Below, in pieces: positions 5,313 through 59,499 of a stretch of 64,000 nucleotides of DNA. Every line of letters starts with the position of its first letter. Position 1 is the first letter of the stretch. The position numbers and the translations under genes are program-made. Origin of the DNA: Actinomycetes bacterium. Lineage in GTDB: Bacteria; Planctomycetota; Phycisphaerae; JAACET01. The DNA lies in NCBI GenBank assembly GCA_030614915.1, contig JAUXAG010000011.1, positions 26,516 through 90,515 on the forward strand. Direction: 5' to 3'. The notes under the pieces are model-generated. The model had not been told where the DNA came from and did not search any database. It saw only the letters and a list, made by a program, of their open reading frames with translations.

Positions 5313-5705
5313 TCAGGCCACCGCCTCCAGGACCTTCTCCTCAACGAAGATTGGTACGCCCGTGCCGATTCCCAGAGCGATCGCGTCGGAAGGCCGCGAG
5401 TCAATCTGCAGAACCTTTTTACCTTGCCTGACCTGAAGCAAGGCAAAAAACGTCCTATCTCGCAGGTCGTTTATGACCACCCGTTCTACTACCCCGCCCA
5501 GCTTTTCGATGACCGAGGCCAACAGCTCATGTGTCGGTGGTCGCGGAGTGGGGTGTTTCTTCAGTCGCCGGTCGATAGCCGCAGCCTCGGTGATACCGAT
5601 GACTATGGGGAAATGTCTATCTCCGTCGATTTCCTTCAAAATGATGATTTGCCGGTCGTCGGTTTCGCTGATCACAATCCGGACCAGTTGCATTTCTACT
5701 TGCAT
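5313..5705 (-). CDS. Bifunctional nuclease (BFN/DUF151) domain protein
   Basis: 130 aa; the pattern (VRI.I.E.D...I.LKEIDGDR.FPI.IG..EA.AI...L......PRP.THEL) is typical of the DUF151 family. Confidence 0.6.
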   Translation of the reverse strand: MQVEMQLVRIVISETDDRQIIILKEIDGDRHFPIVIGITEAAAIDRRLKKHPTPRPPTHELLASVIEKLGGVVERVVINDLRDRTFFALLQVRQGKKVLQIDSRPSDAIALGIGTGVPIFVEEKVLEAVA

Positions 5706-19169: not shown

Positions 19170-20198
19170 ATGAAATGTAAGCGTATCTTTTCGATAATGC
19201 TGGCTCTGCTGATCTTCGGATTCCTGGCCGGCAATTCAGCCCACGCTACCACCTGGACCGTCACCCAACTGACCAACAACAGCTACGGCGACGAATATAC
19301 CCGGATCTACGGCTCCAACGTGGTCTGGTGGGGCTACGACGGCAGCGACAGAGAGATATTCCTCTACGACGCCAACACCACTATCACCACCCAAATCACC
19401 AACAACAGCTACGTCGACAAGGGTCCCCAGGTCTACGGCTCCAACGTGGTCTGGTTCAGCTACGACGGCTACGACAGCAGCACCAGAGAGATATTCCTCT
19501 ACGACGGCAACGGCACCACCCAACTGACCAACAACAGCTACAGCGACGAGTATCCCAAGATCTACGGCTCCAACGTGGTCTGGTACGGCTACGACGGCAG
19601 CGACAACGAGATCTTCCTCTACGACGGCAGCGGCACTACTCAACTGACCAACGACAGCTACGACGACTACAATCCCCAGATCTACGGCTCCAACGTGGTC
19701 TGGTACGGCTCCGACGGCAACGACTATGAGATATTCCTCTACGACGGCAATACCACGGTCACCACCCAAATCACCGACAACAGCTACAGCGACGAGTATC
19801 CCAAGATCTACGGCTCCAACGTGGTCTGGTACGGCTACGACGGCAGCGATTATGAGATCTTCCTCTACGACACCAACACCACGCTCACCACCCAACTGAC
19901 CAACGACAGCTACGACGACTACAATCCCCAGATCTACGGCTCCAACGTGGTCTGGCGGGGCTCCGACGGCAGCGACTATGAAATCTTCTTCTACGACGGC
20001 AACACCACCACCCAACTGACCAACAACAGCTACTACGACAGTTCTCCCCAGATCTACGGCTCCAACGTGGTCTGGTACGGCAACGGCCCTGACGGCAGCG
20101 ACTCTGAGATCTTCCTGGCAACCCCCGAACCCGCCACCCTGGCCCTGCTGCTTCTGGGCGGCTTGCTCCTGCTGGATCGCAGGCACAGATCGGCCTGA
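19170..20198 (+). CDS. PEP-CTERM-anchored PD40 (TolB-like WD40-like) beta-propeller repeat protein, 8 repeats
   Basis: Signal peptide; 8 x 40-aa repeats (TQLTNNSY.DEYP.IYGSNVVWYGYDGSD.EIFLYDGN) resembling PD40. C-terminal PEPATLALLLLGGLLLL-DRRHR exosortase sorting signal. ATG at 19170 with purine-rich SD preferred over the ORF-track start 19110. Confidence 0.75.
   Translation: MKCKRIFSIMLALLIFGFLAGNSAHATTWTVTQLTNNSYGDEYTRIYGSNVVWWGYDGSDREIFLYDANTTITTQITNNSYVDKGPQVYGSNVVWFSYDGYDSSTREIFLYDGNGTTQLTNNSYSDEYPKIYGSNVVWYGYDGSDNEIFLYDGSGTTQLTNDSYDDYNPQIYGSNVVWYGSDGNDYEIFLYDGNTTVTTQITDNSYSDEYPKIYGSNVVWYGYDGSDYEIFLYDTNTTLTTQLTNDSYDDYNPQIYGSNVVWRGSDGSDYEIFFYDGNTTTQLTNNSYYDSSPQIYGSNVVWYGNGPDGSDSEIFLATPEPATLALLLLGGLLLLDRRHRSA
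19260..20110 (+). repeat. Eight tandem ~120-bp coding repeats with near-identical DNA cores
   Basis: tctacggctccaacgtggtctggtacggctacgacggcagcgac recurs at 120-bp spacing. Confidence 0.8.
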
Positions 20199-20214
20199 AC
20201 TGCCTAAAAAACAT

Positions 20215-20420
20215 TGCTATAATTCTTTTCTTTCTGCGCAATCTGCGAAGCTTGTACCTGCGGAGGCAGGTATCAGCGTCTAATAATCTTTCCGTATCTT
20301 TCTTCCCCTCTTCCTCTGTGCCTCTGAGCCTTTTCTTATCAGCGTTCATCTGTGAAATCTGTGGCTAATTCCTGTTTTCCTTCTTTGAATCAGCGTCTAA
20401 TAATCTGAATTTGCATAATC
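20215..20420. repeat. Intergenic mosaic repeats (F-type ctgcgcaatctgcgaa, D-type ctctgtgcctctgagcc, F-type tctgtggctaattcctg / cagcgtctaataatctg)
   Basis: Seen directly; paralogous to 18718-18780 and 5228-5290. Confidence 0.5.
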
Positions 20421-40259: not shown

Positions 40260-42077
40260 TCAAAACGGCAGTTTCGCCCTTGGAAAACTAATCTCCTCGC
40301 CAACGGCCGGCGGAACGAACGGCTCGAAATGATCGTCCTTCCATCTTAGCCAGCGCAATGAAGGGTCTTCCAAAGAAACCCCAAACCGGAAACTAGCCTC
40401 CATTACTCGGCCATCATCGCTCAATTCCGTTACTTCAACAGTCATCCCGCTTAGCTCGATCCGTTCGCCCAGGGCCAGGGGGTGATCTGTACTTCGGAAC
40501 ATTTTATCGAACCACCGCCCTAAATATCCCCTCTTCAGACGTACAAGCAGTGTTTGGGCGTCTGGCCGACGGATTGTCTGTCTGGATAAAGCCGATGCAA
40601 GGGTCCTCATTCGGCGAGGAAGCGGTTGTTCGTTCACCGCTCTGGCGCTCAACATGTACAGCAGATGGCCGGGCGCAGGATGGTTCAGAAAAATCAGGTC
40701 CTGTTTCTCAATCGAAGAATCCATCTTGCCGAGCCCATGACAACTCTCCAGGAAGTACTGCGGGCCCATCGGCCACTTCGCACGCACATACAGCAGTACC
40801 GGCGAGCCCAGCACGTGGATTACTACAAGTACTATCGCCAGCAGGACCGTCGGGACCCGTCGGCTCAGTGCGTAATTATCCCGCAGCTGCACGCTTTTAA
40901 ACACCCAGCTCAGATACTCGCTCAGCAAGCCCATCGCACCGATACCGACGAAGAAGAGCTGCCGATCCTGCGGACTGCTCGCACATGGGGCAATGCTGGC
41001 CAGGATCATTCCCAACACCCAGAAACGAGCTACTCGGCTTGCCTTGAGCAGAGGACGAAACAGCACTGCCAATAGTACTAGTACCATCACGCCGATTAGC
41101 CAAACCCAGTGCAGGTTCTGCGGAGAAAAAATACTGAATTCCCCCGGAGGAATTGCCCACTGTCCCAGCAGCAAAATCGGCACGCGCACAGGCAGCACAA
41201 ACAAGAAGCCAAGCGGATCCGCCAGCGGATCCGTATAGATGCCCACCCCTTCGACCCCGTAGCCTTGGTACCACCAGAGTACTCGCCAGACACACACCAC
41301 CAGCACATACGGCATCAGCCCCTTGAGTCTTTGCCCGGCAGGCCCACGATCCAGCACAAGCGCATAACCCAGCAGATAGGCGCAAATGCCGATACCGGCC
41401 TCAGCCGACAGCAAACTCATGCCTAAAAGAATCGGCCCCAACGCCGCACCGGCTCGCCAATTATCTCGCCGCCAGCGATCCTGAGCGAGCAGGGCAAGAA
41501 CCCCAAACAACGTGGCCAATAGTGCGTTGCGGTTAGCCAAAAAACCCACCGCCGTGCCGTGCGAATCATCAAGGGCGTAGAGCAGCCCCGCCAATCCAGC
41601 TGCCGCAGCCACGCCCATGAATCGCCGGTATAGCACTGTTGTGCAGCCTATCAGTGCTCCAAACCATAGCAGGCTCTGAGCGTGCATCAGTCCCGCCCGA
41701 TTAGGCCAGAGCCAATAGTCCAACACATGTGTCATAGCAGCCAAGGGCCGCCAGAATGCCCATCGAATTTTCGGATACGTCCACCACGGAATCCAGCCGG
41801 CGTCCATCATCCGTTCGGTCCGTGCTGCATCCCCATCGAAGAATCGCCATATATCCGGCGGGACGGGTAGCAGCTCACCATACTCGCTCGAACCCATCAT
41901 CGCCCAGCGTTGCAGGTGATCTTCCAGGATCCACCCCACCCCCAGCGACGGCAGGGCAAGGCCCATTGCCAGTATTGCCAGTACAATCGGCAAATACCGC
42001 CAAGTCAACACCGCATCCAGCAACCCCGCCAGACCACCGTCAAGCCCTGTTGCCTGAACCTCTGCCTTCATTTGCAT
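40260..42077 (-). CDS. Polytopic membrane protein (>=10 TM) with C-terminal soluble domain; possible GT-C-fold glycosyltransferase; paralogue A
   Basis: About 50-55% identical to the adjacent gene. Conserved YA(L/I)DD(S/A)HG acidic motif in the first predicted extracytoplasmic loop, as in GT-C enzymes. Family not identified. Confidence 0.55.
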   Translation of the reverse strand: MQMKAEVQATGLDGGLAGLLDAVLTWRYLPIVLAILAMGLALPSLGVGWILEDHLQRWAMMGSSEYGELLPVPPDIWRFFDGDAARTERMMDAGWIPWWTYPKIRWAFWRPLAAMTHVLDYWLWPNRAGLMHAQSLLWFGALIGCTTVLYRRFMGVAAAAGLAGLLYALDDSHGTAVGFLANRNALLATLFGVLALLAQDRWRRDNWRAGAALGPILLGMSLLSAEAGIGICAYLLGYALVLDRGPAGQRLKGLMPYVLVVCVWRVLWWYQGYGVEGVGIYTDPLADPLGFLFVLPVRVPILLLGQWAIPPGEFSIFSPQNLHWVWLIGVMVLVLLAVLFRPLLKASRVARFWVLGMILASIAPCASSPQDRQLFFVGIGAMGLLSEYLSWVFKSVQLRDNYALSRRVPTVLLAIVLVVIHVLGSPVLLYVRAKWPMGPQYFLESCHGLGKMDSSIEKQDLIFLNHPAPGHLLYMLSARAVNEQPLPRRMRTLASALSRQTIRRPDAQTLLVRLKRGYLGRWFDKMFRSTDHPLALGERIELSGMTVEVTELSDDGRVMEASFRFGVSLEDPSLRWLRWKDDHFEPFVPPAVGEEISFPRAKLPF

Positions 42078-42133
42078 TTCCCGGACAAATCGGGCTGATA
42101 CCCAAGAAAGTTTAATTCACAACAGCTAGATTA

Positions 42134-43951
42134 TCAGTGCTGAAGCTCTATCGTTTCTCCAATGGCCGGTGGGACGAATGGCTTGAACTGGTGATCCTCC
42201 CAGTAGATCCAGCGCAACGAAGAATCTTCTAAAGGAACCGCAAATCGAAAGGTAGCCTCCGCCGGTCGGCCATCATCCGTCAATTCTGTTACCGTAACGG
42301 TCATCCCTGTCAGTTTGACCTGCTCTCCCAGGGCCATGGGGTGGTTTTTGCCTCGGAAGAGTTGGTCGCACCAGCCTAGATATCCGCCTAGATATCCGTA
42401 TTTGGGACGGATGGTGAGTGTTTGGACATCAGGACGGTGTATTAGCACTGATGGTATCGCTGGGGCGAGAACTCTCATATGGCGTGGCACCGGCTGGTCA
42501 TTCAACTCCCTCATGCAAAGCAGAAAAATAGTGGCTAACGCTGCGGGCTGATTGACGATGACCACGTCCTGCTCTTCAACCGCCCCACCGGCCATGCACT
42601 GAGCGTAGTAATCTTTATCAGGAGTCCATGGACCAAAAGAGTACGCTGCGCGAAGTGGCAGAAGAATTGGGGCCGCGATCATATGAACAAGCACCAGGAC
42701 TAGTGCAAAGGAGACAGTAGCGAAACGCCGAATTAGATTACGTGGCTTGAGAGCTGATGCGCCAAACAGATCGGCCAATAATTGTGCCAGTAATCCCATC
42801 GCCCCGATGCCCACGAAGAACAGAAGACGATCCCAGGCCAACGTCGCGCAGGCAGGAACCACAGCCAGTAGCATTGCCAATGCCCAAAAGCGTGCCAGCC
42901 GACTGCGTCGAAGTAAGGGGACTAATATGGTGCCGATCAACAGGACAATAGCCAGAGCATACAACCACATAGTCGTTGCGTGTCTGGATGTGAGAGTTAT
43001 TAGACTGCCGATTTCCGCGGGAGGCAAAAACCATTGGCCCATCAACAGAAGAGGAGCATATTTGAGAGCTGATCCTGCAAAACGGGTTGGGTCATTTATG
43101 GGATCGATATACCAGCCCATACCCTCGACGCCATAACCCAATTGTGTCCAGCTAATCCGCCAGACGAGGACAACGGCAACGTACGGGACCAGCGTTGCTA
43201 ATCGCCGGCTCCAAGAGCCGCGATCCAGAATAAGCGCATAAGCCACCAAGTACGCGCAGATTCCAACGCCGATTTCAGCCGAGAGCAGGGCTGCCGTCAG
43301 AAGAATTGGGCCCAGAATCGCACCGGCTCGCCAACCGTCCCGCCGCCATCGATCGTGAGCGACCAGGGCAAGAACCCCAAACAACGTGGCCAATACTGCG
43401 TTGCGATTGGCCAAGAAACCTACCGGGATGCCATGGGCGTCATCAATGGCGTAGAGAAGCCCCGCTAATCCCGCTATCCATGTGAAACCCATAAATCTTC
43501 GATACAACAACGCCACAGCCGTTACCAGTAGACCGAACCACACAATGCTTTGAGCATGCATCAAAGCAGGGCTCTCAGGCCAAATTTGGTAGTCCAGCCA
43601 GTGAGTTATCGCTGTCAAAGGACGCCAGAATGCTCCTTTTATCTCTTTGAAAGTCCACCAGGGCAGGAAGCCGTGGTCCATCATATGAGCAGTATGTTCT
43701 GGATTACCGTCAATGAATCGAAAGATGTCCAGGGGGGAGTGTACAAACTCGCTGACGCTGCCCCCGCCAAGTATTACGCTACGATGGAGATAGTCGTCCA
43801 TGAACCACCCCACATTCAGCGACGGAAGGACAAGGGCCATCGCCAGTATGGCCAGCCCAATCGGCAAATACCGCCAAGTCAACACCGCGCGCAAAAACCT
43901 CGCCAGAGCACCGCTAGGCCCCGTTTTCTGAACGTCTGCTCTCATTTGCAT
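42134..43951 (-). CDS. Polytopic membrane protein, paralogue B of 40260..42077
   Basis: Same length (605 aa); collinear N-termini MQMRADVQKTG / MQMKAEVQATG. Confidence 0.55.
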   Translation of the reverse strand: MQMRADVQKTGPSGALARFLRAVLTWRYLPIGLAILAMALVLPSLNVGWFMDDYLHRSVILGGGSVSEFVHSPLDIFRFIDGNPEHTAHMMDHGFLPWWTFKEIKGAFWRPLTAITHWLDYQIWPESPALMHAQSIVWFGLLVTAVALLYRRFMGFTWIAGLAGLLYAIDDAHGIPVGFLANRNAVLATLFGVLALVAHDRWRRDGWRAGAILGPILLTAALLSAEIGVGICAYLVAYALILDRGSWSRRLATLVPYVAVVLVWRISWTQLGYGVEGMGWYIDPINDPTRFAGSALKYAPLLLMGQWFLPPAEIGSLITLTSRHATTMWLYALAIVLLIGTILVPLLRRSRLARFWALAMLLAVVPACATLAWDRLLFFVGIGAMGLLAQLLADLFGASALKPRNLIRRFATVSFALVLVLVHMIAAPILLPLRAAYSFGPWTPDKDYYAQCMAGGAVEEQDVVIVNQPAALATIFLLCMRELNDQPVPRHMRVLAPAIPSVLIHRPDVQTLTIRPKYGYLGGYLGWCDQLFRGKNHPMALGEQVKLTGMTVTVTELTDDGRPAEATFRFAVPLEDSSLRWIYWEDHQFKPFVPPAIGETIELQH

Positions 43952-47610: not shown

Positions 47611-48249
47611 ATGGCTGATATCAAACCGATACGTTTGGGCGTGTTGCTTTCCGGTTCCGGCCGAACCTTAGCCAACATCCTCAAGCTCACTGCCGCCGGA
47701 GAACTTTCCGCCCAGGTAGTCACCGTCATCAGTTCACGTTCCACCGTAAAAGGCGTGCAGATTGCCCGCGATGCCGATTTACCCTGTCATATTATTCGTA
47801 CCAAGGACCACCCGGATGTGGACCAGTTCAGTGCTGGCATTGTCGAGCTGCTCGATGCCGCCAACGTGGACCTTATCATCCAGGCCGGTTGGCTGTGTTA
47901 TTGGAAAATCCCCGACCGCTATCTGGCTCAAGTTATGAACATTCATCCCGCTTTGCTGCCTTCGTTTGGCGGCAAAGGCATGTGGGGCCATCACGTCCAC
48001 GAGGCCGTCCTGGCCGCCGGCTGCAAGGTCTCCGGCTGCACCGTTCATTTCGTCAACAACGAATACGACAAAGGCCCCATCATCCTCCAGCGAACTTGCG
48101 AAGTTGCCGAGGACGACAACGCCGACTCTCTTGCCGCCCGCGTCTTCGAGCAGGAGTGCATCGCCTACCCAGCCGCAATCCAGCTCTTCGCCGAAAACCG
48201 CCTGCAAATCATCCGCAATCGTGTCAAAGTCTTGGCCTCATTAGGCTAA
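47611..48249 (+). CDS. purN: Phosphoribosylglycinamide formyltransferase
   Basis: IRLGVLLSGSGRTLANIL N-terminus; SGCTVHFV formyltransferase motif. Confidence 0.9.
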   Translation: MADIKPIRLGVLLSGSGRTLANILKLTAAGELSAQVVTVISSRSTVKGVQIARDADLPCHIIRTKDHPDVDQFSAGIVELLDAANVDLIIQAGWLCYWKIPDRYLAQVMNIHPALLPSFGGKGMWGHHVHEAVLAAGCKVSGCTVHFVNNEYDKGPIILQRTCEVAEDDNADSLAARVFEQECIAYPAAIQLFAENRLQIIRNRVKVLASLG

Positions 48250-48295
48250 CCAATGATGACCTAGCCGAACCACCAGCCTCGTCCGAACCGCGATC

Positions 48296-48309
48296 GTAAG
48301 GGAGCGGAA
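48296..48309. repeat. Left 14-bp direct repeat (GTAAGGGAGCGGAA) flanking the low-GC cassette
   Basis: Matches 13/14 with GTTAGGGAGCGGAA at 49357-49370. Confidence 0.4.
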
Positions 48310-48413
48310 AATCGACGTCAGATTAACGGTACGGACGCGGAAATTGATAGACCGGTGTATGCCGTGTAAAATCTGACGGATGAGAAAACCCTATTAATGG
48401 AAGGACCAAACGT

Positions 48414-49361
48414 ATGAGCAAACGTAACAAAGCTATCGGAGACAAGCTACCGGACGCCCTAGTCCCACCAGCCAGCGAAAATCGGAGCATTGTGGGTGAT
48501 CTAATTAACTTCCGAGGAATGGTTTACGCGCCCATTAACGAGCAAGGCGTGGTGTTCCTCTTCGGGAAGGTCATGGAAGATCTCAATATGTACGTTGAAG
48601 AAATAAAGTCGGGCTTTCCAGATTGCATAGCCAGACGGTTCGTGGGAACGGGCTGGAGACGGGTGAGACTGGAGTTTGAGTTCAGTTCGAAGAACTTCAA
48701 AGATCATGGACACGATCCCACCGCCTGTGACATTGTTATCTGCTGGAGCCACGACTGGACCGATTGCCCCTTGGAAGTCATCGAGCTTCGAGAAATCATA
48801 AAGGGATTGGAAAACTGGTCAATAGAACGTCCGGGGGCAGGCAAGACCGATGCGAAGGAATCTCTAACGGCCAAGGAATGGTTTCAGAAACACCGAGTTA
48901 GGGAAGGAATCGAAAATCTTTTTGAAAAGATGGTCGAACAATTACAGAGCCTCAACGAGGAGGTGTTCTATAAGGTCGGGTCTTCCGCCGTGAGTATATA
49001 CTGTCCCGAACGGGTGATGATATATGTCTATCCAAGAAAGGCTGGTATACGCCTTGAACTTTTCACTGGAAATGAACCTCTGGGTGAGGTGAAAACGCTG
49101 AATAGCGAAGGTAAACCGACCAAATGGGGAGCCCTGACCCTCCAAAACCAGCACGACGTCGCGCGAGTGTTGCCTTGGCTTTCTGAGTCAATGAAGAGGA
49201 TCAAGGACGCAATATCGCGAAATGAGAATACCTCTTGGATGACCAAGATCGAGAATGACGTGACCGGCGCTGTTGCGAAGCTGGAGAAGGACAACGGTAA
49301 GCCCTTGCCAAAACGCAAGCGTAATCCGAACCACAACTGCAAGCCGAACGGTGACCGTTAG
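48414..49361 (+). CDS. Orphan hypothetical protein on a lower-GC cassette; possible PD-(D/E)xK-like nuclease core
   Basis: GC visibly lower than surroundings. Motif ...VVFLFGKV...GFPDCIA...RVRLEFEFSSK... is compatible with a PD-(D/E)xK beta-sheet core. No confident family assignment. Confidence 0.55.
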   Translation: MSKRNKAIGDKLPDALVPPASENRSIVGDLINFRGMVYAPINEQGVVFLFGKVMEDLNMYVEEIKSGFPDCIARRFVGTGWRRVRLEFEFSSKNFKDHGHDPTACDIVICWSHDWTDCPLEVIELREIIKGLENWSIERPGAGKTDAKESLTAKEWFQKHRVREGIENLFEKMVEQLQSLNEEVFYKVGSSAVSIYCPERVMIYVYPRKAGIRLELFTGNEPLGEVKTLNSEGKPTKWGALTLQNQHDVARVLPWLSESMKRIKDAISRNENTSWMTKIENDVTGAVAKLEKDNGKPLPKRKRNPNHNCKPNGDR

Positions 49362-49370
49362 GGAGCGGAA
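49357..49370. repeat. Right 14-bp direct repeat (GTTAGGGAGCGGAA) overlapping the cassette gene stop codon
   Basis: See the left repeat. Confidence 0.4.
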
Positions 49371-49627
49371 GCTATGGCCTCCGGGACGGATGCTGGCGCC
49401 TCGTCTGCAAATGCTCCCGGCCCGAATGTCGGGGGCGTTAGAAGTGAAGAAACCCCCGGTGAAACCGGGGGATAAATATAGCATGATCCACAGAACCTTT
49501 ATGCACCTGCCATAAAGTGTGGCGTTGCCTCTCTGCGCAAAAGCTGCTAGCATATCTGTCCAGTCGGCTCGCGTGTAGCCTAAAGCGATGTAACGGACCC
49601 TCTTTCTCTGCGCCCGGGTTTACAGGC

Positions 49628-52600
49628 ATGAACGATTCTGATACATCTTCAACCTCACAGCCTCAGCAGGAGCTTAGCCGAGCCCCTAAGCGTCGCCGCA
49701 GACGCCGTTGGCTATATCTTGTTGTTTTGCTCGTGCTGGCCCTGGCGGTCCTCGCTTATGCCCTGCTGCCTTGGCTGATCCCCACGGATTGGCTCAGAAG
49801 CCGGATCGTCGCTGGAATCCAGGACCAGTTCGGCCGATCCGCCTCGATATCCTCAATCGAAATATCCTGGTCCCGCGGCATCATCGTCCGCGACATCACC
49901 ATTGATCGCCTGGAGCAATTCGGCCCGGGCTTTTTTCTAAAGGCCTCCCGCCTCCAGTTGGACTTTCGCCCTTTGCGCCTGCTCTTGCAGCACCGCCTGG
50001 GCAGCGTACGCGTGGATCAGCCGCAGTTATGGATCGTCGCCGACGCCGCCGGCAGATTGAACCTGACCTCCCTGCCACCACTCGACACCCAGGAGGACGC
50101 ATTTGAGCAAATTACCATAACCAATGCGAATCTGCAGTTTGTCGATCAGATTCACGCCCGCGAAACTCACCTGGCTATACCGCAGATCAACATTGCACGT
50201 GATGCTCGCAGCGGCCAATATACTTTTATCGCCCAGGGCGCCCCGGCCAAAACTACCGGCCAACCTCTCTTCAGCCTGCGGGCTAATTTCACCCCGCCCG
50301 GCAGCGGACCCGATCTGCAGGATATTCCGGTCAGAGGATCGGCGGAGTTGCTTTGGTCGGATTTTGATTTGGCCGCCGTACCACTGCCGCGATTGTCCAA
50401 AGTGGACTGCCAGGTCCTCAGCGGAACCACCAGCGGCCGGGCCAGATTGGAGCTTTACTCACAGGGCCGCGTCGAACTCTCCGAGTGCACCGCGGGAATA
50501 GATAAGCTCCGTCTGCAAGTAGCTCAAGTTTCCGAGCTGCCTCAAGCCACGCAGCAGCCCTCCGCCCCGGCCCAGATATCCATCCCTCAGGCCCGCTTCG
50601 AGCTCCACGGCTCCTACGAGTTTGTCTCCGGTGAGCTGACCGTCCAGACCCTCAGCGGGACGCTTGCCGGCCTGGATTTTAGCTCATCGTTACAGGGCCG
50701 ATTCTTCCCAGCCGAGCGAACCTTTGCTCCCAGCGACGCTTCACTTGCCCTTACGCTCCAACCCAGCAGACTCCGGGAGCAGTTTCCCTTTTTGGATGAG
50801 TTACTTTCTGAACATAATTTGACAATCACCGGCTCCAGCAGTCTGGCGGTGGATTTCAATCAGAACGCCAGGATCGATCATCTGAGTTTTTCGATTGACG
50901 CTTCCGACACCGGCCTCCATGTGCCGGCTCTACTGCACAAATCAGCCGGTTTGCCTTGCCGAATGAAACTCTCCGCTCTCATTGACCACAACACCGCCAG
51001 CTTGACCCTGGATGAGCCCTTGGAAATTGAGTTGGCCTCCGGCCGTTTTTCACTGGATATGAACTTGGCCCAGCCGCTGCGGATGGCATCTTTTCTGGAC
51101 CTCCTTATTCGGCCCACGGAGATTATCGAACTTGGCGCCCGGCAGTGGCCCCAGGCGCAGATCGACACCAGCTTGGAGATTGCCCAACTCAGCGACCTTA
51201 TGCCCGTCTTTCCAGTGCTGGCCGGCGTGCTCTCGGGCAACGGATTCACCTTGGCTGGGCCCCTACATGCCGAGTTGCACTTAGTGCCTCTGCCGGCTGA
51301 TGACCCAGACTCCCCGAGCCAGCTGACCGCTGCCGTTTCTCTACCCGCTCAGAGTTCTCTACAATGCTTGCCCTATTTTAGCAAGCCGCCTGGTGAGCCC
51401 CTGGATCTTTCATTTGCCGCTCGCTTGGGCCCGGGCAGTTCACGCTTGGATGACCTGCACCTCTCCTGCAAGATCGGCCAAGCCACCCTCTCCGTAACCG
51501 ATGCTTTTTGTGCCCTCCAGTTTTCACCTGGGGACTGGGCCGATTTTACTCCTTCGCTGTCAACTGCCGGCCGGTTTCGCCTTGAAAACTCCGCAGTCTT
51601 GGCCCAAGCCCTGCCCGCACTGCAAGGGCTTAGCTTGGCCGGTGATTTAGTCGGCCGATTTGATCTCGCCTTTGACCCCCTGGTAAGTTTGCGTCTGGCC
51701 TTGGCCTTGGATGCTACCGACTTGGCCTTGCGTGTACCTGCAAACCTCGATATGGCGGCCGGAGATCGTTCTGAGCCTGCTGTTTTATTTCAGAAGTCCG
51801 CCCTTACCCCGGCCATGCTAGACCTGCAGTTCCAGCTCGACTTGCCGGCCGACAACAACCCCCAGGCCAAGCCTCTATCCTGGCTCGAATTCACTGCCGG
51901 CAATGCAGCCACTGCTGCCTTCCAGGCCAAGTTGAACTGGACGCTTGGCGACTCGCTCGGCTCGATTGAGCTCAATCACCGACAGCTCCCAAGCAAGGAT
52001 GGTTTCGGTTTTGATCTAGCCCTTTCAAAAATTGACTTGGACAGCTTGGATGAAAACTTCCCTTTGTTGGCCTCGGCTTGTGAGCCTTATCAACTTGCCG
52101 GCAGTGTCGCTCTGAAGCTCAGCGGTCGGCTCAGCCCCGAACTGTCGCTCGAAAGCCTGGATTTCGCTGGGGATTTCACCGCTGCCCAGTGCGTCCTGCC
52201 GATCGCAACTGGCCAATCCAGCCTGTCCAATCCACCCGTTATTATGCGAAAATCAGCCCAACTGTCCCTCACTCTGCAAGCTCGCCTCAGCGCCGAAGAT
52301 TATGATGAGCAAGGCCGCCGACGCCTCAAAATCGAATCCGCCCAGTTGAACTTTGTCGGCTCGCAATTGAATCTTGCCGGCAGTGCCCTCTTGGCCGGCC
52401 CCCTCGAGAGCCCCAGCCATAGTCTTATGCAATCCGTTTTGCGATTTGAGCCATTTATCTCGGCCCAGTTCGACGCCGACGGCACTGTCGTTTTTGATGC
52501 AGATCTTTTCACTTTGTTTCCACCTCTGGAGGCGGTCCATCGTCGAATGGCATTGACTGGCCTTGTGAATTACAGCTTCCAATTTAGAGCTGAGCCCGGC

Positions 52601-53914
52601 CAGACTTACTTGGCAGCTAAACTCAGGAGCGGTTCGGAGCCCCTGAAGGTGGGCCCATTTGAGTTTGTCAAGGCAGAGAATCATCTGCGGTTATTCTTCA
52701 AGCCAGACACCGATGAGTTGGCTGTATCTGGCGCTTCGCTGGAATTGAACGTGCTGGAGTTGAATCTTTTCGACGAACCGCTGCGATTATCAGCTGAGTT
52801 GGCCCTAAGCCAAAGTCAGCTCGACGTCTCGGATTTGTTTATTACCCTGGGAGATTCCTCCGGACATTTCACCGCCCATCTGGAGGGCATCGCCACCGCC
52901 CCGGCCGGATATGTCAGCTTCTACAGTCCCCTGATTGACCAATCTCGCTTGGGGGATTTTGCTGCTAAGTTATCTTCCTTTGTGCAGCAGCAAATCGGCG
53001 GGCAGAGCTGGGCCCCTGATGATCAAGCATCGTCGGCCGCGGATGAATCGCCTGCTCGCGAGCAAGCCCCCCCCGTCCTGCAATTACCCCCTATGGATAT
53101 TACTTTCCGGGCCGAGTGTGATAAGTTTCTCGTTAGCCTTCCGGATGTTTCGGCAAAGTTTATCCTCCAGCACCTAACCTTTGATTCCCAGCTGACTTCT
53201 GCGTCCCTGACGGGCCGGTTCGCCATGGCTGTCAACGGCGGACGTCTCGGCGGCGAACTCAGCATCCTCTTTGACAAGCCCGGTTTACCCCTCTCTTGTC
53301 GCTACGAGGCCCTGGACCTGATGGCCGACGAAAACATTGTTCCTTTGGTCTCACAGGTCTTTCCAAACATGACCGTTCAGGGAACAATAACCGAGTCCCG
53401 CAGTATCACAGATTATTATATTCTCAGGGGCAAAGATCTGCCCCCCTTCCCCCAGGAGCGGGGCCTAACCATCCTGCACGACGGAATGGTTGTAGGGCCT
53501 ACCGCGCCCCGCTGGGTTATCTATTGGTTTCCAAAGCTTTCGCTTACTGAATATCCTTTCGAGGTGGCCCACAATGTTTTCAGCAGAGACCCCAAGAGCG
53601 GACGCATGAGAAACGACATGGTTTTCCTCGGCAAGGGCAAATACAACATTTATATCACCGGCAAGACCATGGCTGATAACACCACCGATTACACCTTGGG
53701 TGTGGATATGTCTCCGGGCTTCGTGGGCCTTGAACAGCGACACACCTGGAGGCAGTCGCGAGTGCCTTTACTCAGCTACACAGGACAGATTGTTGACCAC
53801 AAGTGGACCAGCCAAACAGCGAACTTCACCTGGCCTACGCGGGCTGCCTGGGATATTCTTATCAAGAATAATGCCCTGAGAACTCTCATTGAGCAGCGCC
53901 GCCAGGCCGAGTAG
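49628..53914 (+). CDS. AsmA/TamB-like giant envelope protein (1428 aa)
   Basis: N-terminal Arg-rich segment + TM + AsmA-like (LIPTDWLRSRIVAGIQDQFGRSASISSIEISWSRGIIVRDITI) region. Start at MNDSD (ATG 49628) preferred. Confidence 0.65.
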   Translation: MNDSDTSSTSQPQQELSRAPKRRRRRRWLYLVVLLVLALAVLAYALLPWLIPTDWLRSRIVAGIQDQFGRSASISSIEISWSRGIIVRDITIDRLEQFGPGFFLKASRLQLDFRPLRLLLQHRLGSVRVDQPQLWIVADAAGRLNLTSLPPLDTQEDAFEQITITNANLQFVDQIHARETHLAIPQINIARDARSGQYTFIAQGAPAKTTGQPLFSLRANFTPPGSGPDLQDIPVRGSAELLWSDFDLAAVPLPRLSKVDCQVLSGTTSGRARLELYSQGRVELSECTAGIDKLRLQVAQVSELPQATQQPSAPAQISIPQARFELHGSYEFVSGELTVQTLSGTLAGLDFSSSLQGRFFPAERTFAPSDASLALTLQPSRLREQFPFLDELLSEHNLTITGSSSLAVDFNQNARIDHLSFSIDASDTGLHVPALLHKSAGLPCRMKLSALIDHNTASLTLDEPLEIELASGRFSLDMNLAQPLRMASFLDLLIRPTEIIELGARQWPQAQIDTSLEIAQLSDLMPVFPVLAGVLSGNGFTLAGPLHAELHLVPLPADDPDSPSQLTAAVSLPAQSSLQCLPYFSKPPGEPLDLSFAARLGPGSSRLDDLHLSCKIGQATLSVTDAFCALQFSPGDWADFTPSLSTAGRFRLENSAVLAQALPALQGLSLAGDLVGRFDLAFDPLVSLRLALALDATDLALRVPANLDMAAGDRSEPAVLFQKSALTPAMLDLQFQLDLPADNNPQAKPLSWLEFTAGNAATAAFQAKLNWTLGDSLGSIELNHRQLPSKDGFGFDLALSKIDLDSLDENFPLLASACEPYQLAGSVALKLSGRLSPELSLESLDFAGDFTAAQCVLPIATGQSSLSNPPVIMRKSAQLSLTLQARLSAEDYDEQGRRRLKIESAQLNFVGSQLNLAGSALLAGPLESPSHSLMQSVLRFEPFISAQFDADGTVVFDADLFTLFPPLEAVHRRMALTGLVNYSFQFRAEPGQTYLAAKLRSGSEPLKVGPFEFVKAENHLRLFFKPDTDELAVSGASLELNVLELNLFDEPLRLSAELALSQSQLDVSDLFITLGDSSGHFTAHLEGIATAPAGYVSFYSPLIDQSRLGDFAAKLSSFVQQQIGGQSWAPDDQASSAADESPAREQAPPVLQLPPMDITFRAECDKFLVSLPDVSAKFILQHLTFDSQLTSASLTGRFAMAVNGGRLGGELSILFDKPGLPLSCRYEALDLMADENIVPLVSQVFPNMTVQGTITESRSITDYYILRGKDLPPFPQERGLTILHDGMVVGPTAPRWVIYWFPKLSLTEYPFEVAHNVFSRDPKSGRMRNDMVFLGKGKYNIYITGKTMADNTTDYTLGVDMSPGFVGLEQRHTWRQSRVPLLSYTGQIVDHKWTSQTANFTWPTRAAWDILIKNNALRTLIEQRRQAE

Positions 53915-58244: not shown

Positions 58245-58751
58245 ATGGTATTTGCAAAGAACAGATCGAGGAAAGCAAAATGGGTAATTGTTCCGGTCAC
58301 TGTTCTGGTATTTGTTCTGTTTGTTGGGGTGGGGCTGGGTTTGGTGCATTATATTGGCCATCGGGGCCTTCGCGAGATGAACAGCCTGGGTGGCATGACA
58401 TGTGCCATTGGCGCCTATATTTGCACGCACGAAGGTGCCTTTCCCGGGTCTTTTCAGGATCTGGTGGACTCAGATATAGTCAGGCCCAAAGGTGAAGGCT
58501 GGTTCTATGCGTGGAAAGGGGCAATGGTAAATTTGCCTGACTTAGATGCGCACTATTATGATGGACCGCGATTTCGGCCTGAGAATATAATTGTGGCGTG
58601 GGGATACGAATACCGTGAAGCGGATACCATGCCGCTTGTGATCCATAAGAAAATTCGTGTCACAGGTGAGGGGATGGCGATGACTAGTACAAAAAGGTTG
58701 CGTAGCTTTATGAAGCAATATAGGAAAGATAAAAAGCTTCGGCCAGAATAG
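58245..58751 (+). CDS. Small N-terminally membrane-anchored protein (168 aa), copy 1 of a tandem pair
   Basis: Basic N-terminus + TM (KWVIVPVTVLVFVLFVGVGLGLV), then soluble domain. About 85% identical to 58990..59499. No family recognised. Confidence 0.6.
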   Translation: MVFAKNRSRKAKWVIVPVTVLVFVLFVGVGLGLVHYIGHRGLREMNSLGGMTCAIGAYICTHEGAFPGSFQDLVDSDIVRPKGEGWFYAWKGAMVNLPDLDAHYYDGPRFRPENIIVAWGYEYREADTMPLVIHKKIRVTGEGMAMTSTKRLRSFMKQYRKDKKLRPE

Positions 58752-58989: not shown

Positions 58990-59499
58990 ATGGCACTTGC
59001 AAAGAACAGATCGAGGAAAGCAAAATGGGTAATTGTTCCGGTCACTGTTCTGGTATTTGTTCTGTTTGTTTGGGTGTGTCTGGGTTTGGTGCATTATTGT
59101 GGCCATTGGGGCTTTCGCGAGTCCCAAGGCATGATTGGTATGACAAATGCAATTGGCGTCTATATTTGCACGCACGAAGGTGCCTTTCCCGGGTCTTTTC
59201 AGGATCTGGTGGACTCAGATATAGTCAGGCCCAAAGGCGAAGGCTGGTTCTATACGTGGCGAGGCGCAATGGGAAATTTGCCTGAAGCACATGGGCACTG
59301 GCTCTCTGATGGACCGCGATTTCGGCCTGAAAATATGATTGTGGCGTGGGGATACGAATACCGTGAAGCGGATACCATGCCGCTTATGATCCATAAGAAA
59401 ATTCGTGTCACAGGTGAGGGGATGGCGATGACTAGTACAAAAATGTTGCGTCGCTATATGAAGCAATATAAGAAAAATAAAAAGCTTCGGCCAGAATAG
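58990..59499 (+). CDS. Small membrane-anchored protein (169 aa), copy 2 of the tandem pair
   Basis: About 85% identical to copy 1. Confidence 0.6.
   Translation: MALAKNRSRKAKWVIVPVTVLVFVLFVWVCLGLVHYCGHWGFRESQGMIGMTNAIGVYICTHEGAFPGSFQDLVDSDIVRPKGEGWFYTWRGAMGNLPEAHGHWLSDGPRFRPENMIVAWGYEYREADTMPLMIHKKIRVTGEGMAMTSTKMLRRYMKQYKKNKKLRPE

What the first reader, a model, noticed from the sequence alone, without database searches (positions are those of the whole stretch)
48296..49370. Lower-GC 1.07-kb cassette flanked by 14-bp direct repeats carrying an orphan, possibly nuclease-like gene
The 48414..49361 gene is visibly AT-richer than its neighbours. It lies between purN and the AsmA-like gene, and is bracketed by GTAAGGGAGCGGAA (48296) and GTTAGGGAGCGGAA (49357), the second overlapping its stop codon.

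The protein has no obvious family, but shows a hydrophobic strand, a PD motif and an E-x-E...K strand compatible with a PD-(D/E)xK core.

Taken together this suggests an inserted selfish or defence-type single-gene cassette, or a homing-endonuclease-like element.
Basis: partly seen in the sequence, partly recalled or inferred. Interest (0 to 1): 0.6.

Follow-up and report, generated by a model that had tools for sequence, protein, structure and literature searches.

The report
Acquired nuclease-like gene with flanking repeats
A single horizontally acquired gene sits in a fast-changing slot between two housekeeping genes; it encodes an uncharacterised but widespread protein that most likely pairs a restriction-enzyme-like DNA-cutting domain with a DNA-binding domain, and its relatives often sit beside anti-phage restriction systems.

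Summary
The sequence features are real. Gene X (48414..49361) has GC 0.50 against 0.566 for the window, a modest deviation (about the 4th percentile). The 14-bp repeat belongs to a 27-nt (23/27) and, with gaps, 45-nt direct repeat: 48265-48309 and 49326-49370. No shuffle reproduces it.

X is not an orphan. It has more than 1000 homologs, mostly about 270 aa. Its N-terminal domain matches 2462 representative clusters and has no Pfam, NCBIfam, PHROG or PADLOC model.

That domain has a predicted alpha-beta-beta-beta-alpha-beta core with conserved E43, P69-D70 and E87-x-E89. Its best fold hits are restriction enzymes, BamHI first, but none is significant. Elsewhere it is fused to homing-endonuclease repeats, HARE-HTH and Mrr_N. 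The C-terminal domain is DUF5655, a YjbR/MotA-like double-wing fold.

Five relatives carry SAM-methyltransferase genes or remnants after purN or before asmA, never X. So X is a lineage-specific acquisition in a variable slot. No clean empty site was found.

Homologs are enriched next to RM and other defence genes, and several are also flanked by direct repeats.

Best reading: a mobile, solitary restriction-type nuclease gene. The defence role is inferred, not shown. It is a new member of a known kind, of moderate interest.

The parts
47611..48249 (+). purN (phosphoribosylglycinamide formyltransferase). This is the left conserved flank; homology with relatives ends at its stop codon.
   Evidence: ORF. 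Its 90% cluster mate P0130 carries PF00551. Alignment with L167, L169 and L001 breaks right after the stop codon.
48250..49520 (.). Window-specific variable segment of 1.27 kb. Relatives that show this side have SAM-methyltransferase genes or remnants downstream of purN and/or upstream of asmA.
   Evidence: blastn and tblastn of L001, L167, L168, L169 and L170 find nothing between 48250 and about 49520. GC is 0.509.
48265..48309 (+). Left copy of the 45-nt imperfect direct repeat. Its core GTAAGGGAGCGGAA is at 48296-48309, and it contains two CCGAAC hexamers 18 nt apart.
   Evidence: GC is 0.64, which is host-like. No secondary structure. Read in the frame of the right copy it gives PNHQPRPNRDRK, against the X tail PNHNCKPNGDR*.
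48316..48378 (.). Perfect 9-bp inverted repeat, CGTCAGATT (48316-48324) and AATCTGACG (48370-48378). It brackets the X promoter and overlaps its -10 box. It may be an operator or may be chance.
   Evidence: My own estimate of the chance expectation is about 0.02.
48344..48372 (+). Sigma-70-type promoter of X: TTGATA, 17 nt, TAAAAT.
   Evidence: 10 of 12 matches.
48399..48405 (+). Ribosome-binding site GGAAGGA, 8 nt before the ATG. The same GGAAGGA motif precedes many homologs.
48414..49361 (+). Gene X, 315 aa, a two-domain protein.
48486..48818 (+). N-terminal domain (residues 25-135), a predicted restriction-endonuclease-like (PD-(D/E)xK-type) module. Conserved residues are E43, P69-D70, E87-x-E89, H98, H100, C105-D106, C110-W111, H113-D114-W115 and C118.
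   Evidence: AF2 pLDDT is above 90 here, with helix 43-53, strands 59-64, 71-76 and 81-91, helix 92-97 and strand 107-112. Conservation. Foldseek. 2462 representative clusters. Fusion partners. pN/pS is 0.09 against the nearest relative.
48870..49217 (+). C-terminal domain (about residues 153-268), DUF5655 with a YjbR/YdhG/MotA-CTD-like double-wing fold. It is predicted to bind DNA.
   Evidence: PF18899 in 81 of 120 homologs. Foldseek hits 8q8o, 9t2w, 1kaf, 2fki, 2od0 and 2oc6, with probability up to 0.98. Literature on the fold: PMC7641849.
49245..49358 (+). Basic C-terminal tail (residues 278-315) that no homolog shares. It has host-like GC (0.547) and low model confidence, and it runs into the right repeat.
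49326..49370 (+). Right copy of the direct repeat. Its core GTTAGGGAGCGGAA is at 49357-49370, and it contains the TAG stop codon of X.
49453..49471 (.). G+C-rich hairpin CCCCCGGTGAAACCGGGGG. It scores as a terminator only on the minus strand. It may end X transcription and lies outside the repeat-bounded unit.
49523..49627 (+). Conserved promoter and leader of the AsmA-like gene (TTGCCT, 17 nt, TAGCAT at 49525-49553). Homology with relatives resumes here.
   Evidence: Alignment A6. blastn of L170 matches 49538-49568.
49628..53914 (+). AsmA-like (DUF748/YhdP) gene, the right conserved flank.

Best explanation
**What it is.** Gene X is a self-contained, horizontally acquired single-gene module with its own promoter, RBS and ORF. 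It occupies a rapidly turning-over slot between purN and the AsmA-like gene. Related genomes carry SAM-methyltransferase genes there instead.

**What it encodes.**
- The N-terminal domain is an undescribed family of restriction-endonuclease-like nuclease domain. It has a PD-(D/E)xK-type core. The predicted metal-binding residues are E43, D70, E87 and E89, a D...ExE variant like that of BamHI.

**Proposed mechanism (inferred).** The double-wing domain selects the DNA and the N-terminal domain cuts it. The gene has no partner methyltransferase here or in most loci. It would therefore have to spare host DNA, either by recognising a feature of foreign DNA (type IV-like, modification- or structure-dependent restriction) or by being tightly regulated.

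**How it got there (inferred).** The 45-nt imperfect direct repeats mark the recombination junctions of the acquisition and resemble attL/attR. X's non-homologous C-terminal tail reads into the right-hand copy.

**Shown versus inferred.**
- Shown: real repeat, lineage-specific presence, large family, domain architecture, purifying selection, enrichment next to RM and defence genes.
- Inferred: nuclease activity, DNA binding, defence role, mode of insertion.
For: **Acquisition**
- Five relatives with the same flanking genes lack X.
  - L001: ileS 92%, purN 88%.
  - L170: purN in the same 90% cluster.
  - L167: asmA 77%, plus a purN 3' fragment.
  - L168.
  - L169: ileS-purN, a methyltransferase remnant, then asmA.
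- All five carry methyltransferase genes or remnants after purN or before asmA.
- GC, GC3 and GC skew are atypical.
- The nearest relative, P0133/L171, is 88% identical over residues 25-133. It is truncated and sits in an unrelated genome of 0.60 GC.
- X has its own promoter.

**Repeat**
-.
- Flanking direct repeats well above shuffles also occur around homologs in L150, L094, L099 and L126.

**Nuclease reading**
- Topology and pLDDT.
- E-x-E is invariant, and E(alpha1), PD, H, H, CD, CW and W are near-invariant over 150 diverse representatives.
- Best Foldseek hits in PDB are BamHI (seven of the top twelve rows), PaqCI, Bax1, BsmI, FokI, MspJI and HinP1I.
- Named hits near the top in BFVD include Mrr-like, MmcB-like, VRR-NUC, PD-(D/E)XK and Cas4.
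- From my own knowledge of the BamHI literature, its active site is E77, D94, E111 and E113. It has the same 17-residue D-to-E spacing as D70 to E87.
- The domain is fused to HNH_repeat (47 of 150), HARE-HTH (3), Mrr_N, DUF1016_N and ParB-HTH.

**DNA-binding reading**
-.
- PMC7641849 describes YjbR as a double-wing DNA binder fused to nucleases in defence contexts.

**Defence context**
- Among 85 immediate neighbours in 48 loci: N6_Mtase 5, Eco57I 4, ResIII 2, plus Type ISP, BrxL and PIN-TPR. PADLOC gives mad2 8, MTase_I 5 and type IIG 4.
- X homologs lie directly downstream of a type I RM plus YgjP (L085), a type ISP enzyme (L099) and a ResIII helicase (L152).
- The L094 island also holds an Eco57I methyltransferase, a NucS_C protein and an Mrr_cat protein.
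- A control of 66 neighbours of random genes gave no RM hits apart from one mad2.
- Only 1 hit in 2.9 million viral contigs.

**Function retained**
- pN/pS is 0.09 with synonymous sites saturated.
Against: - No fold hit for the N-domain is significant. The best E-values are 0.26 (PDB) and 0.08 (BFVD).
- Profile searches against PDB sequences found nothing. hhalign against a NucS-like family found no N-domain relation and only a weak C-domain alignment (E 0.068).
- The canonical Lys of (D/E)xK is Glu, so catalysis is unproven.
- X itself does not reach any Pfam threshold, DUF5655 included.
- There is no PADLOC, PHROG or NCBIfam match.
- In this window X is not in a defence island; its neighbours are housekeeping genes.
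- Most homolog loci, roughly 75-80%, show no defence neighbour.
- The control set is small and comes from housekeeping neighbourhoods.
- Compositional deviation is modest, and GC3 is partly ameliorated.
- No empty site was found, and no recombinase gene was looked for, so the repeats cannot be tied to a mechanism.
- The repeat's GC is host-like, and 81 nt of host-like sequence separate the X core from the right copy. A simple target duplication does not predict this.
Confidence: 0.5

Rival explanations
1. X is a free-standing homing-endonuclease-like selfish gene. It cuts X-less alleles of the purN-asmA region, or some other target, and is copied in by repair. The direct repeats are scars of that event.
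For: - The N-domain is fused to Pfam 'Homing endonuclease associated repeat' in 47 of 150 representatives.
- It is a single gene with its own promoter in an intergenic slot.
- Presence and absence differ among relatives.
- It occurs in variable contexts, and the conserved block ends exactly at the stop codon in the group A loci.
- A decayed, truncated copy exists in L171, as expected for the homing cycle.
Against: - Relatives do not show an intact X-less target; they carry different genes.
- The family is almost absent from viral contigs, and no intron or intein context was seen.
- Partial synteny over several kb among L131, L119 and L145 suggests vertical inheritance.
- Homing does not predict the operon-like placement behind RM genes.
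- Homing by repair does not produce 45-nt direct repeats.
Confidence: 0.15
2. X is an accessory DNA-repair or DNA-metabolism nuclease, or a catalytically dead DNA-binding regulator. It has no conflict role, and the repeats are incidental junction debris.
For: - The YjbR/MmcQ and MmcB-like families carry DNA-repair annotations.
- Most loci have no defence neighbour.
- The window context is housekeeping.
- The catalytic Lys is replaced by Glu.
- Purifying selection is strong.
Against: - Distribution is patchy and lineage-specific, and relatives lack X.
- RM and defence neighbours are enriched relative to the control.
- The acidic triad is the most conserved feature of the family, which argues for catalysis.
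- The fusion partners (HARE-HTH, Mrr_N, HNH_repeat) are typical of restriction or homing nucleases.
Confidence: 0.17
3. X is an integron-type or similar site-specific gene cassette. The repeats are recombination sites used by a recombinase encoded elsewhere.
For: - The unit is a single gene bounded by direct repeats.
- The right boundary, GTTAGGG, matches 6 of 7 positions of the integron core GTTRRRY (sequence; consensus from my own knowledge).
- Homologs sit in arrays of co-directional single-gene units. These are separated by a conserved motif, CCACGGCGGCTGGCCAATAAAATAG, with 5 copies in L094.
- L150 has 77-nt flanking repeats.
Against: - The repeat has no attC-like hairpin on either strand. 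z-scores are +1.87, -0.26, +1.20 and +0.03.
- X has its own promoter, unlike typical cassettes.
- The window holds no array, and the repeat occurs only twice.
- There are no Rfam matches and no tRNA genes.
- The repeat is not found in any of 1.7 Mb of related loci.
- The boundary motif of the other loci also lacks inverted symmetry.
Confidence: 0.08
4. X is ancestral at this locus and was lost or replaced in the relatives. The lower GC reflects amino-acid composition, and the repeat is a local duplication unrelated to mobility.
For: - Compositional deviation is modest: 3.9th percentile for GC and 7.6th for tetranucleotides.
- The slot is rearranged in every relative, so the direction of change is not strictly determined.
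- The repeat has host-like GC.
Against: - Methyltransferase genes or remnants are present in all five relatives, so a methyltransferase is the more parsimonious ancestral cargo.
  - A homologous pair links L001 and L169 (MT290 and its remnant).
  - A weakly similar pair links L167 and L168 (MT254 and MT234).
- X's best full-length homologs are only 58% identical and come from scattered lineages.
- The 88% relative is in a genome of 0.60 GC with different flanks.
- No trace of X was found in any relative's slot.
Confidence: 0.1

Closest known systems
BamHI-type PD-(D/E)xK restriction endonucleases (D...E-x-E active-site variant)
   Same: - The predicted alpha-beta-beta-beta-alpha-beta core is the same.
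- The conserved residues fall in the same places: an acid on helix 1, PD at the start of strand 2 and E-x-E on strand 3.
- The D-to-E spacing is 17 residues in both (my own knowledge of BamHI).
- BamHI chains are the best PDB fold hits.
   Different: - There is no significant sequence or fold score.
- X carries an extra conserved H-x-H...CD....CW.HDW..C block that could bind a metal.
- X has a separate double-wing domain.
- X has no partner methyltransferase.
- The domain is about 110 aa, against 213 aa for BamHI.
NucS-like nuclease + DUF5655 proteins (the architecture often mis-annotated 'predicted transport protein')
   Same: - Both pair a nuclease-type N-terminal domain with a DUF5655-like C-terminal domain.
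- Both occur in the same islands. Examples are the L094 neighbour with NucS_C and the L032 cassette.
   Different: - The N-domains are not detectably related, and the C-domains align only weakly at E 0.068 (hhalign).
- X's N-domain has ExE where the L032 protein has ELK (read from its sequence).
MmcQ/YjbR-containing nuclease fusions in defence contexts (Bell, Wolf and Koonin 2020, PMC7641849)
   Same: A double-wing DNA-binding domain is combined with a nuclease domain and is associated with RM or defence islands and variable hot spots.
   Different: - Those proteins carry an EVE modified-base reader and GIY-YIG or PLD nucleases.
- X has no EVE or PUA-like domain and has a different nuclease module.
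- X's C-terminal domain belongs to DUF5655, not to PF04237.
Type IV (modification-dependent) solitary restriction enzymes such as Mrr and MspJI
   Same: - Both are solitary nuclease-plus-DNA-reader proteins without a methyltransferase.
- Both reside in defence islands.
- MspJI and Mrr-like proteins are among the fold hits.
- The domain is fused to Mrr_N in one relative.
   Different: No recognised modified-base reader is present. Modification dependence is purely inferred.
Free-standing homing endonuclease genes (for example the T4 seg and mob genes)
   Same: - Both are single-gene intergenic insertions with their own promoter.
- Both show presence/absence polymorphism.
- X's domain relatives carry homing-endonuclease-associated repeats.
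   Different: X is not phage-borne. No target or empty allele has been identified. X is flanked by direct repeats.

Membership tests
PD-(D/E)xK nuclease superfamily | Core alpha-beta-beta-beta-alpha-beta fold | tested here: inconclusive
PD-(D/E)xK nuclease superfamily | Catalytic motif D...(D/E)-x-K on strands 2 and 3 | tested here: inconclusive
   P69-D70 and E87-x-E89 lie at the expected positions. ExE is invariant in 150 representatives. The Lys is replaced by Glu, a variant known from BamHI (my own knowledge).
PD-(D/E)xK nuclease superfamily | Metal-dependent phosphodiester cleavage | not testable with these tools
   This needs biochemistry.
DUF5655 (PF18899) / YjbR-YdhG-MotA-CTD double-wing fold | Match to the Pfam model | tested here: inconclusive
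   X itself has no Pfam hit at E <= 1. Of its homologs, aligned end to end, 81 of 120 match PF18899 with a best E of 3.4e-9.
DUF5655 (PF18899) / YjbR-YdhG-MotA-CTD double-wing fold | Fold similarity to solved double-wing proteins | tested here: met
   Foldseek against PDB: 8q8o (E 4.8e-3, probability 0.98), 9t2w, 1kaf (MotA C-terminal domain), 2fki (YjbR), 2od0 and 2oc6. TM-scores normalised to the target are 0.5-0.58 for all but 8q8o (0.38).
Integron gene cassette | attC site: an imperfect palindrome that folds as a hairpin with R''/L''/L'/R' boxes at the 3' end of the cassette | tested here: not met
   Neither repeat copy folds better than shuffles on either strand. There is no Rfam hit.
Integron gene cassette | Promoterless ORF in an array next to intI and attI | tested here: not met
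   X has its own strong promoter-like site. The repeat occurs only twice in 64 kb. No array is present.
Insertion sequence / transposon | Transposase gene, terminal inverted repeats and a short target duplication | tested here: not met
   The only ORF product is X, with no transposase family hit. The repeats are direct, 45 nt long and imperfect.
Free-standing homing endonuclease gene | Closely related genomes with an intact, X-less cognate site | tested here: inconclusive
   All five relatives lack X, but other genes fill the slot. No clean empty site was found.
Free-standing homing endonuclease gene | Nuclease of a recognised homing family, with phage, intron or intein association | tested here: not met
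   Only 1 hit in 2.9 million viral contigs. No intron or intein context was seen. Only the DNA-binding repeats of homing enzymes are shared, and they occur in other architectures.
Known anti-phage defence systems (PADLOC-DB v2) | Match to a system protein model | tested here: not met
   0 families at E <= 1.
Type IV restriction enzyme | Cleavage dependent on DNA modification; a modified-base reader domain | not testable with these tools
   No PUA, SRA, EVE or YTH domain was detected. Dependence on modification needs experiments.

The most novel reading that the evidence does not exclude
**Reading.** X belongs to a previously undescribed class of mobile single-gene 'nuclease cassettes'. The gene would be a new one-gene anti-phage (type IV-like) defence system built on an uncatalogued nuclease domain. 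It would move between genomes as a repeat-bounded unit by a site-specific mechanism that is neither integron attC recombination nor transposition.

**What points this way.**
- In the window, the unit is bounded by 45-nt repeats.
- In other loci, the units are bounded by the conserved CCACGGCGGCTGGCCAATAAAATAG motif. That motif separates consecutive co-directional single-gene units in defence islands.
Probability: 0.15. Interest if true: 0.7.

Novelty: new member of a known kind. Interest (0 to 1): 0.42.

Why it matters
- **An uncatalogued domain.** If the prediction holds, a nuclease domain present in about 2,500 representative protein clusters is missing from Pfam, NCBIfam, PHROGs and PADLOC. 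It would be a new restriction or homing-type catalytic module. With DUF5655 it would form a new solitary defence-island nuclease, which also gives DUF5655 a testable role as the DNA-selecting domain.
- **A hot spot for gene turnover.** The locus shows an intergenic slot downstream of purN turning over among close relatives, with a methyltransferase exchanged for a nuclease gene.
- **Possible cassette mobility.** The repeat-bounded homologs hint at a way of moving defence genes that has not been described.
- **Caveat.** None of this overturns current understanding. It mainly adds an entry to a known category.

Tried and rejected
**Family searches on X**
- Pfam, NCBIfam, PADLOC and PHROGs gave nothing usable.

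**Searches against solved structures**
- phmmer and profile searches against PDB sequences, for the whole protein and for the N-domain, gave nothing.
- Foldseek with the whole model only reports the C-terminal domain.
- I used the second structure job for an N-domain-only model (pLDDT 72). Its hits are suggestive but not significant.
- phmmer of the unknown N-terminal extensions of P0148 and P0152, suspected reader domains, found nothing.

**Profile comparison**
- hhalign of the X family against a NucS-like + DUF5655-like family built from L032 showed no N-domain relation. The C-domain scored only E 0.068.

**Search for an empty site**
- Scans via purN (genome contigs), AsmA homologs and the purN 90% cluster found five relatives.
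- None is a clean empty site, and none contains the repeat, even allowing 7 substitutions.
- An exact look-up of X's own contig is not on record.

**Structure of the repeat**
- The attC or hairpin hypothesis was rejected by folding both strands.
- Rfam gave no matches on the window region or on four homolog loci.
- There are no tRNA integration targets in the window.
- Similarity between the two flanks beyond the 45 nt is not significant.

**The boundary motif**
- A viral-contig scan for GCYGGCCAATAAAATA returned 25 stretches. Only one (L182) shows the extended motif.

**Other**
- Only 1 viral contig encodes a homolog.
- 'TAAAATCTG' is shared between the window's -10 region and the group A leader. 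I judged this coincidental because the positions differ.
Full report
**1. What the sequence shows**

- The ORF 48414..49361 (+, 315 aa) lies between a purN gene (47611..48249) and a 1428-aa AsmA-like gene (49628..53914).
- purN is assigned because its 90%-identity cluster mate carries PF00551.
- The downstream gene's homologs carry DUF748 and YhdP domains.
- They are the 3' ends of a longer direct repeat.
  - It is 27 nt with 23/27 identity (48283-48309 / 49344-49370).
  - With two small gaps it is 45 nt (48265-48309 / 49326-49370). Each copy carries two CCGAAC hexamers 18 nt apart.
- The local alignment scores 35, against 16.8 +/- 2.3 (maximum 31) in 500 shuffles.
- None of 20 Markov-shuffled windows contains a 23/27 pair at 300-3000 nt. 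All the other such pairs in the real window come from paralogous genes or repeat domains.
- The repeat occurs nowhere else in the window.

**2. Composition**

- X has GC 0.500 against 0.566 for the window. This is 2.2 SD low and at the 3.9th percentile.
- GC3 is 0.59 against 0.64-0.77 in the four neighbouring genes.
- GC skew is +0.118 against a window mean of -0.094.
- Two other parts of the window are as GC-poor.
- The tetranucleotide distance of the segment is only at the 7.6th percentile.
- The deviation is therefore real but modest.
- The low-GC part is the promoter region plus the conserved core of X (0.45-0.49).
- The repeat copies (0.60-0.64), X's C-terminal tail (0.55) and the 150 nt after the right repeat (0.56) are host-like.

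**3. X is not an orphan**

- A search of 5.8 billion proteins gave 1071 homologs at E <= 1e-3. The top listed hits are 43-58% identical and about 260-290 aa long.
- The few named hits come from Planctomycetota, a Thermoplasmatota archaeon and Elusimicrobiota.
- The family aligns from residue about 25 to about 280 of X.
- X's last 38 or so residues (…KPLPKRKRNPNHNCKPNGDR) are unique to it, where homologs have short acidic tails.
- The C-terminal half is DUF5655 (PF18899) in 81 of 120 homologs, although X itself scores nothing in Pfam.
- An AlphaFold model (pLDDT 79; above 90 in both domain cores) was searched against the PDB.
  - It matches YdhG-like proteins, E. coli YjbR, the MotA C-terminal domain and DUF1801 proteins.
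  - Probability reaches 0.98 and the best E-value is 4.8e-3.
- This fold is the 'double-wing' DNA-binding fold. Bell, Wolf and Koonin (PMC7641849) describe it fused to nucleases and EVE domains in defence contexts.

**4. The N-terminal domain**

- Residues 25-135 are the most conserved part of the protein and have no model in Pfam, NCBIfam, PHROGs or PADLOC.
- The predicted order of elements is helix 43-53, strands 59-64, 71-76 and 81-91, helix 92-97, strand 107-112. This is the alpha-beta-beta-beta-alpha-beta core of PD-(D/E)xK nucleases.
- The conserved residues sit at the canonical places:
  - E43 at the start of the first helix;
  - P69-D70 at the start of strand 2;
  - E87-x-E89 on strand 3.
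- A profile of this domain found 2462 proteins (E <= 1e-3) among 1.84 billion cluster representatives.
- Across the best 150, E-x-E is invariant. E(helix 1), PD, two His, CD, CW and W are at least 90% conserved.
- Glu in place of the Lys of (D/E)xK is the BamHI variant. From my own knowledge, the BamHI active site is E77, D94, E111 and E113, with the same 17-residue D-to-E spacing.
- Foldseek with an N-domain-only model gave these results.
  - BamHI chains took seven of the top twelve PDB rows, followed by PaqCI, Bax1, BsmI, FokI, MspJI and HinP1I.
  - Named BFVD hits near the top include Mrr-like, MmcB-like, VRR-NUC, 'PD-(D/E)XK nuclease' and Cas4 proteins.
  - No single hit is significant (E >= 0.08).
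- The fold assignment is therefore well motivated but not proven.
- Independent support comes from domain architecture.
  - In most representatives the domain is C-terminal to other modules.
  - Those modules are HNH_repeat ('homing endonuclease associated repeat') in 47 of 150 and HARE-HTH in 3.
  - Mrr_N, DUF1016_N and ParB-HTH occur once each, along with winged-helix domains.
  - These are the DNA-binding partners normally attached to nuclease catalytic domains.
- The domain is under strong purifying selection. Against its nearest relative, pN/pS is 0.09 with synonymous sites saturated.

**5. Is it an insertion?**

Relatives were found through purN, the AsmA-like protein and the purN 90% cluster.

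| Locus | Similarity to the window | Arrangement |
|---|---|---|
| L001 | ileS 92%, purN 88% | ileS-purN-MT290, an excisionase-like small ORF (my reading of its sequence; no family search), and others |
| L170 | purN in the same 90% cluster; ileS 84.5% nt | ileS-purN-MT254, an asmA-promoter-like stretch, a 122-aa gene, asmA |
| L167 | AsmA 77% | purN 3' fragment, MT254', MT250, asmA |
| L168 | AsmA 63% | MT234, asmA |
| L169 | ileS 81%, AsmA 48% | ileS-purN, remnant of MT290, asmA |

- None of these relatives has X.
- Homology with the window stops at the purN stop codon. It resumes at the conserved asmA promoter at about 49523 (TTGCCT, 17 nt, TAGCAT).
- The window-specific segment is therefore 48250-49520 (1.27 kb). 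The slot is a hot spot whose usual cargo is a SAM-methyltransferase.
- X is a lineage-specific acquisition or replacement.
- The repeat is absent from every relative's locus (up to 7 substitutions allowed). Its 11-nt core is absent from all 1.7 Mb of fetched loci.
- Both repeat copies lie inside the variable segment.
- X's closest relative, P0133/L171, is 88% identical over residues 25-133.
  - It is truncated right after the N-domain.
  - It is convergent with a response-regulator-like gene (my reading of its translation; no family search).
  - It sits in a genome of 0.60 GC with unrelated flanks.
  - This is direct evidence of horizontal spread and decay.

**6. What the repeat is**

- It does not fold. 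z-scores are +1.87, -0.26, +1.20 and +0.03 for the two copies on both strands.
- It has no Rfam match, and the window has no tRNA genes.
- The integron attC and tRNA-targeted island models therefore fail.
- The repeats are direct, and the only protein is X, so an IS or transposon model fails too.
- Read in the frame of X's tail, the left copy gives PNHQPRPNRDRK and the right copy PNHNCKPNGDR*. The left copy could be a relic of the same 3' end.
- That would fit a unit integrated with terminal redundancy, or attL/attR-like hybrid sites.
- I regard the repeats as junction marks of the acquisition, with the mechanism unresolved.
- X has its own promoter (TTGATA, 17 nt, TAAAAT at 48344-48372) and the family's GGAAGGA ribosome-binding site.
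- A perfect 9-bp inverted repeat brackets the promoter.

**7. Context of homologs**

- Eighty metagenomic loci and several contigs were fetched.
- Among 85 immediate neighbours in 48 loci, Pfam finds N6_Mtase 5, Eco57I 4, ResIII 2, MmeI_Mtase 2, and Type_ISP_C, BrxL and N6_N4_Mtase once each.
- PADLOC finds mad2 8, type I MTase 5 and type IIG RM 4.
- Seven of the ten largest neighbours scanned are RM or defence-type proteins, and six of these seven lie directly upstream on the same strand.
  - They include a PLD-helicase, a type ISP enzyme, a SNF2 helicase, a ResIII helicase, two Eco57I/N6_Mtase proteins and a PIN-TPR protein.
  - Some are only 11-54 nt from the X homolog.
- In L085 the homolog overlaps the stop codon of a YgjP-like gene that follows a complete type I RM system.
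- L094 is an island with an Eco57I-type methyltransferase, a NucS_C protein and an Mrr_cat protein.
- A control of 66 neighbours of random 200-350-aa genes in the Phycisphaerae purN loci gave no RM hits apart from one mad2.
- Only one of 2.9 million viral contigs encodes a homolog.
- The family therefore behaves like a host defence-island resident, though most copies are solitary, as in this window.

**8. Repeat-bounded homologs elsewhere**

- I scanned 53 homolog loci, comparing the 400 nt upstream with the 400 nt downstream of the gene.
- Flanking direct repeats far above shuffles appear in L150 (77 nt), L094 (21/21), L099 (20/21) and L126, as well as in the window.
- L094, L099 and L126 share one motif, CCACGGCGGCTGGCCAATAAAATAG.
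  - It is always on the gene strand and lies 16-35 nt before the next start codon.
  - L094 has five copies, which delimit three consecutive single-gene units that include the X homolog.
  - Single copies abut homologs in L088, L090, L127 and L152.
  - In L032, downstream of a purN gene, one copy truncates what I read as an RM-like ORF. That copy precedes a NucS-like + DUF5655-like gene.

- The motif is not palindromic. Only one viral contig (L182) carries its extended form.
- It may be a cassette boundary or a mobile promoter. I could not decide between these.
- Its sequence is unrelated to the window's repeat.

**9. Verdict**

- *Observation:* partly confirmed. The repeat is real and longer than reported, the GC deviation is modest, and the gene is not an orphan.
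- *Interpretation:* partly supported. The gene is acquired, nuclease-like and defence-associated. Neither the selfish-element mechanism nor the fold is proven.
- *Most likely:* X is a solitary restriction-type nuclease made of a new PD-(D/E)xK-like domain and a double-wing DNA binder. It was acquired into a variable slot.
- *Confidence:* about 0.85 that it is an acquired module, about 0.7 that it is a nuclease plus DNA binder, and about 0.45 that it has a defence role.
- *Rivals:* a homing-endonuclease-like selfish gene, a repair or regulatory protein, a site-specific cassette, or an ancestral gene lost elsewhere.
- *Novelty:* a new member of a known kind, of moderate interest.

Noticed in passing
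L094:3054, 3655, 4152, 5050, 8737; L099:4740 (plus a one-mismatch downstream copy near 5604); L126:5969, 6853, 6952; L088:384; L090:841; L127:1231; L152:5605; L032:7799, 9885: A conserved motif of about 25 nt, CCACGGCGGCTGGCCAATAAAATAG. It is always on the gene strand, 16-35 nt before a start codon. It separates consecutive co-directional single-gene units in defence-island-like arrays and flanks X homologs on both sides in three loci. One 99-nt unit without an ORF lies in L126. In L032 one copy truncates an ORF that I read as RM-like. It is not palindromic and has no Rfam hit. It may be a cassette boundary or a mobile promoter.
   Followed up: partly
L114, L119, L121, L123, L124, L125, L128, L131, L138, L139, L143, L145, L149: about 165 nt upstream of the X homolog: A conserved promoter and leader block (TTGCAA, N16, TATCAT, then two hairpins, the second covering the GGAAGGA ribosome-binding site). 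It travels with the gene. The shared block starts about 165 nt before the ATG and ends at the stop codon, even where the flanks differ.
   Followed up: partly
L150:1484-1552; L157:3208-3267; L164:314-383: A three-way-junction element directly upstream of X homologs. The sequence differs between loci but the same stems are kept, which looks like covariation. As DNA the L150 copy folds with z = -4.6. A 77-nt partial second copy lies downstream of the L150 gene.
   Followed up: partly
window 48316-48324 and 48370-48378: A perfect 9-bp inverted repeat (CGTCAGATT / AATCTGACG) brackets the X promoter and overlaps its -10 box. It may be an operator.
   Followed up: no
window 58245-58751 and 58990-59499 (also low GC at about 55.9-57.5 kb and 57.9-60.5 kb): Two tandem paralogous genes of 168 and 169 aa for small proteins with an apparent N-terminal hydrophobic stretch (read from the translations), offset by 745 nt. 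They lie in the most compositionally deviant part of the window (GC at or below 0.50, with the highest tetranucleotide distance apart from the repeat protein at 18.7-19.4 kb).
   Followed up: no
window 19255-20330: Many internal direct repeats at offsets of 372-747 nt inside a coding region, apparently a protein with tandem repeat domains. This is the strongest tetranucleotide outlier in the window.
   Followed up: no
window 40406-42080 versus 42265-43950: Two adjacent regions related at a constant offset of about 1874 nt, suggesting tandem paralogous genes. A similar pair lies at 15258 and 17290 (offset 2032). The second GAF-HD-like gene in the window (15230-15475) is 54% identical to the one at 17262-18647.
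   Followed up: no
L167:3379-3492: In the relative with the closest AsmA-like gene, only the last 38 codons of purN survive. They lie next to a dockerin gene and a GAF-HD gene whose ortholog is 30 kb away in the window (17262-18647). This shows a rearrangement breakpoint exactly at the purN 3' end.
   Followed up: yes
L032:7832-8869; L094:5069-5881: A second, separate family of about 345 aa (827 homologs, no precomputed Pfam domain). By my reading of the L032 sequence it has a NucS-like D...ExK nuclease part and a DUF5655-like C-terminus. The 270-aa L094 neighbour with a NucS_C hit has a similar architecture and sits in the same island as the X homolog.
   Followed up: partly
P0148, P0152, P0134, P0181 (representatives with the X N-domain at the C-terminus): Their N-terminal extensions of 130-280 aa have no informative Pfam or PDB sequence match. 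P0148 and P0152 look to me like PUA/EVE/ASCH-type reader domains. If that is confirmed, it would tie the nuclease domain to modification-dependent restriction.
   Followed up: partly
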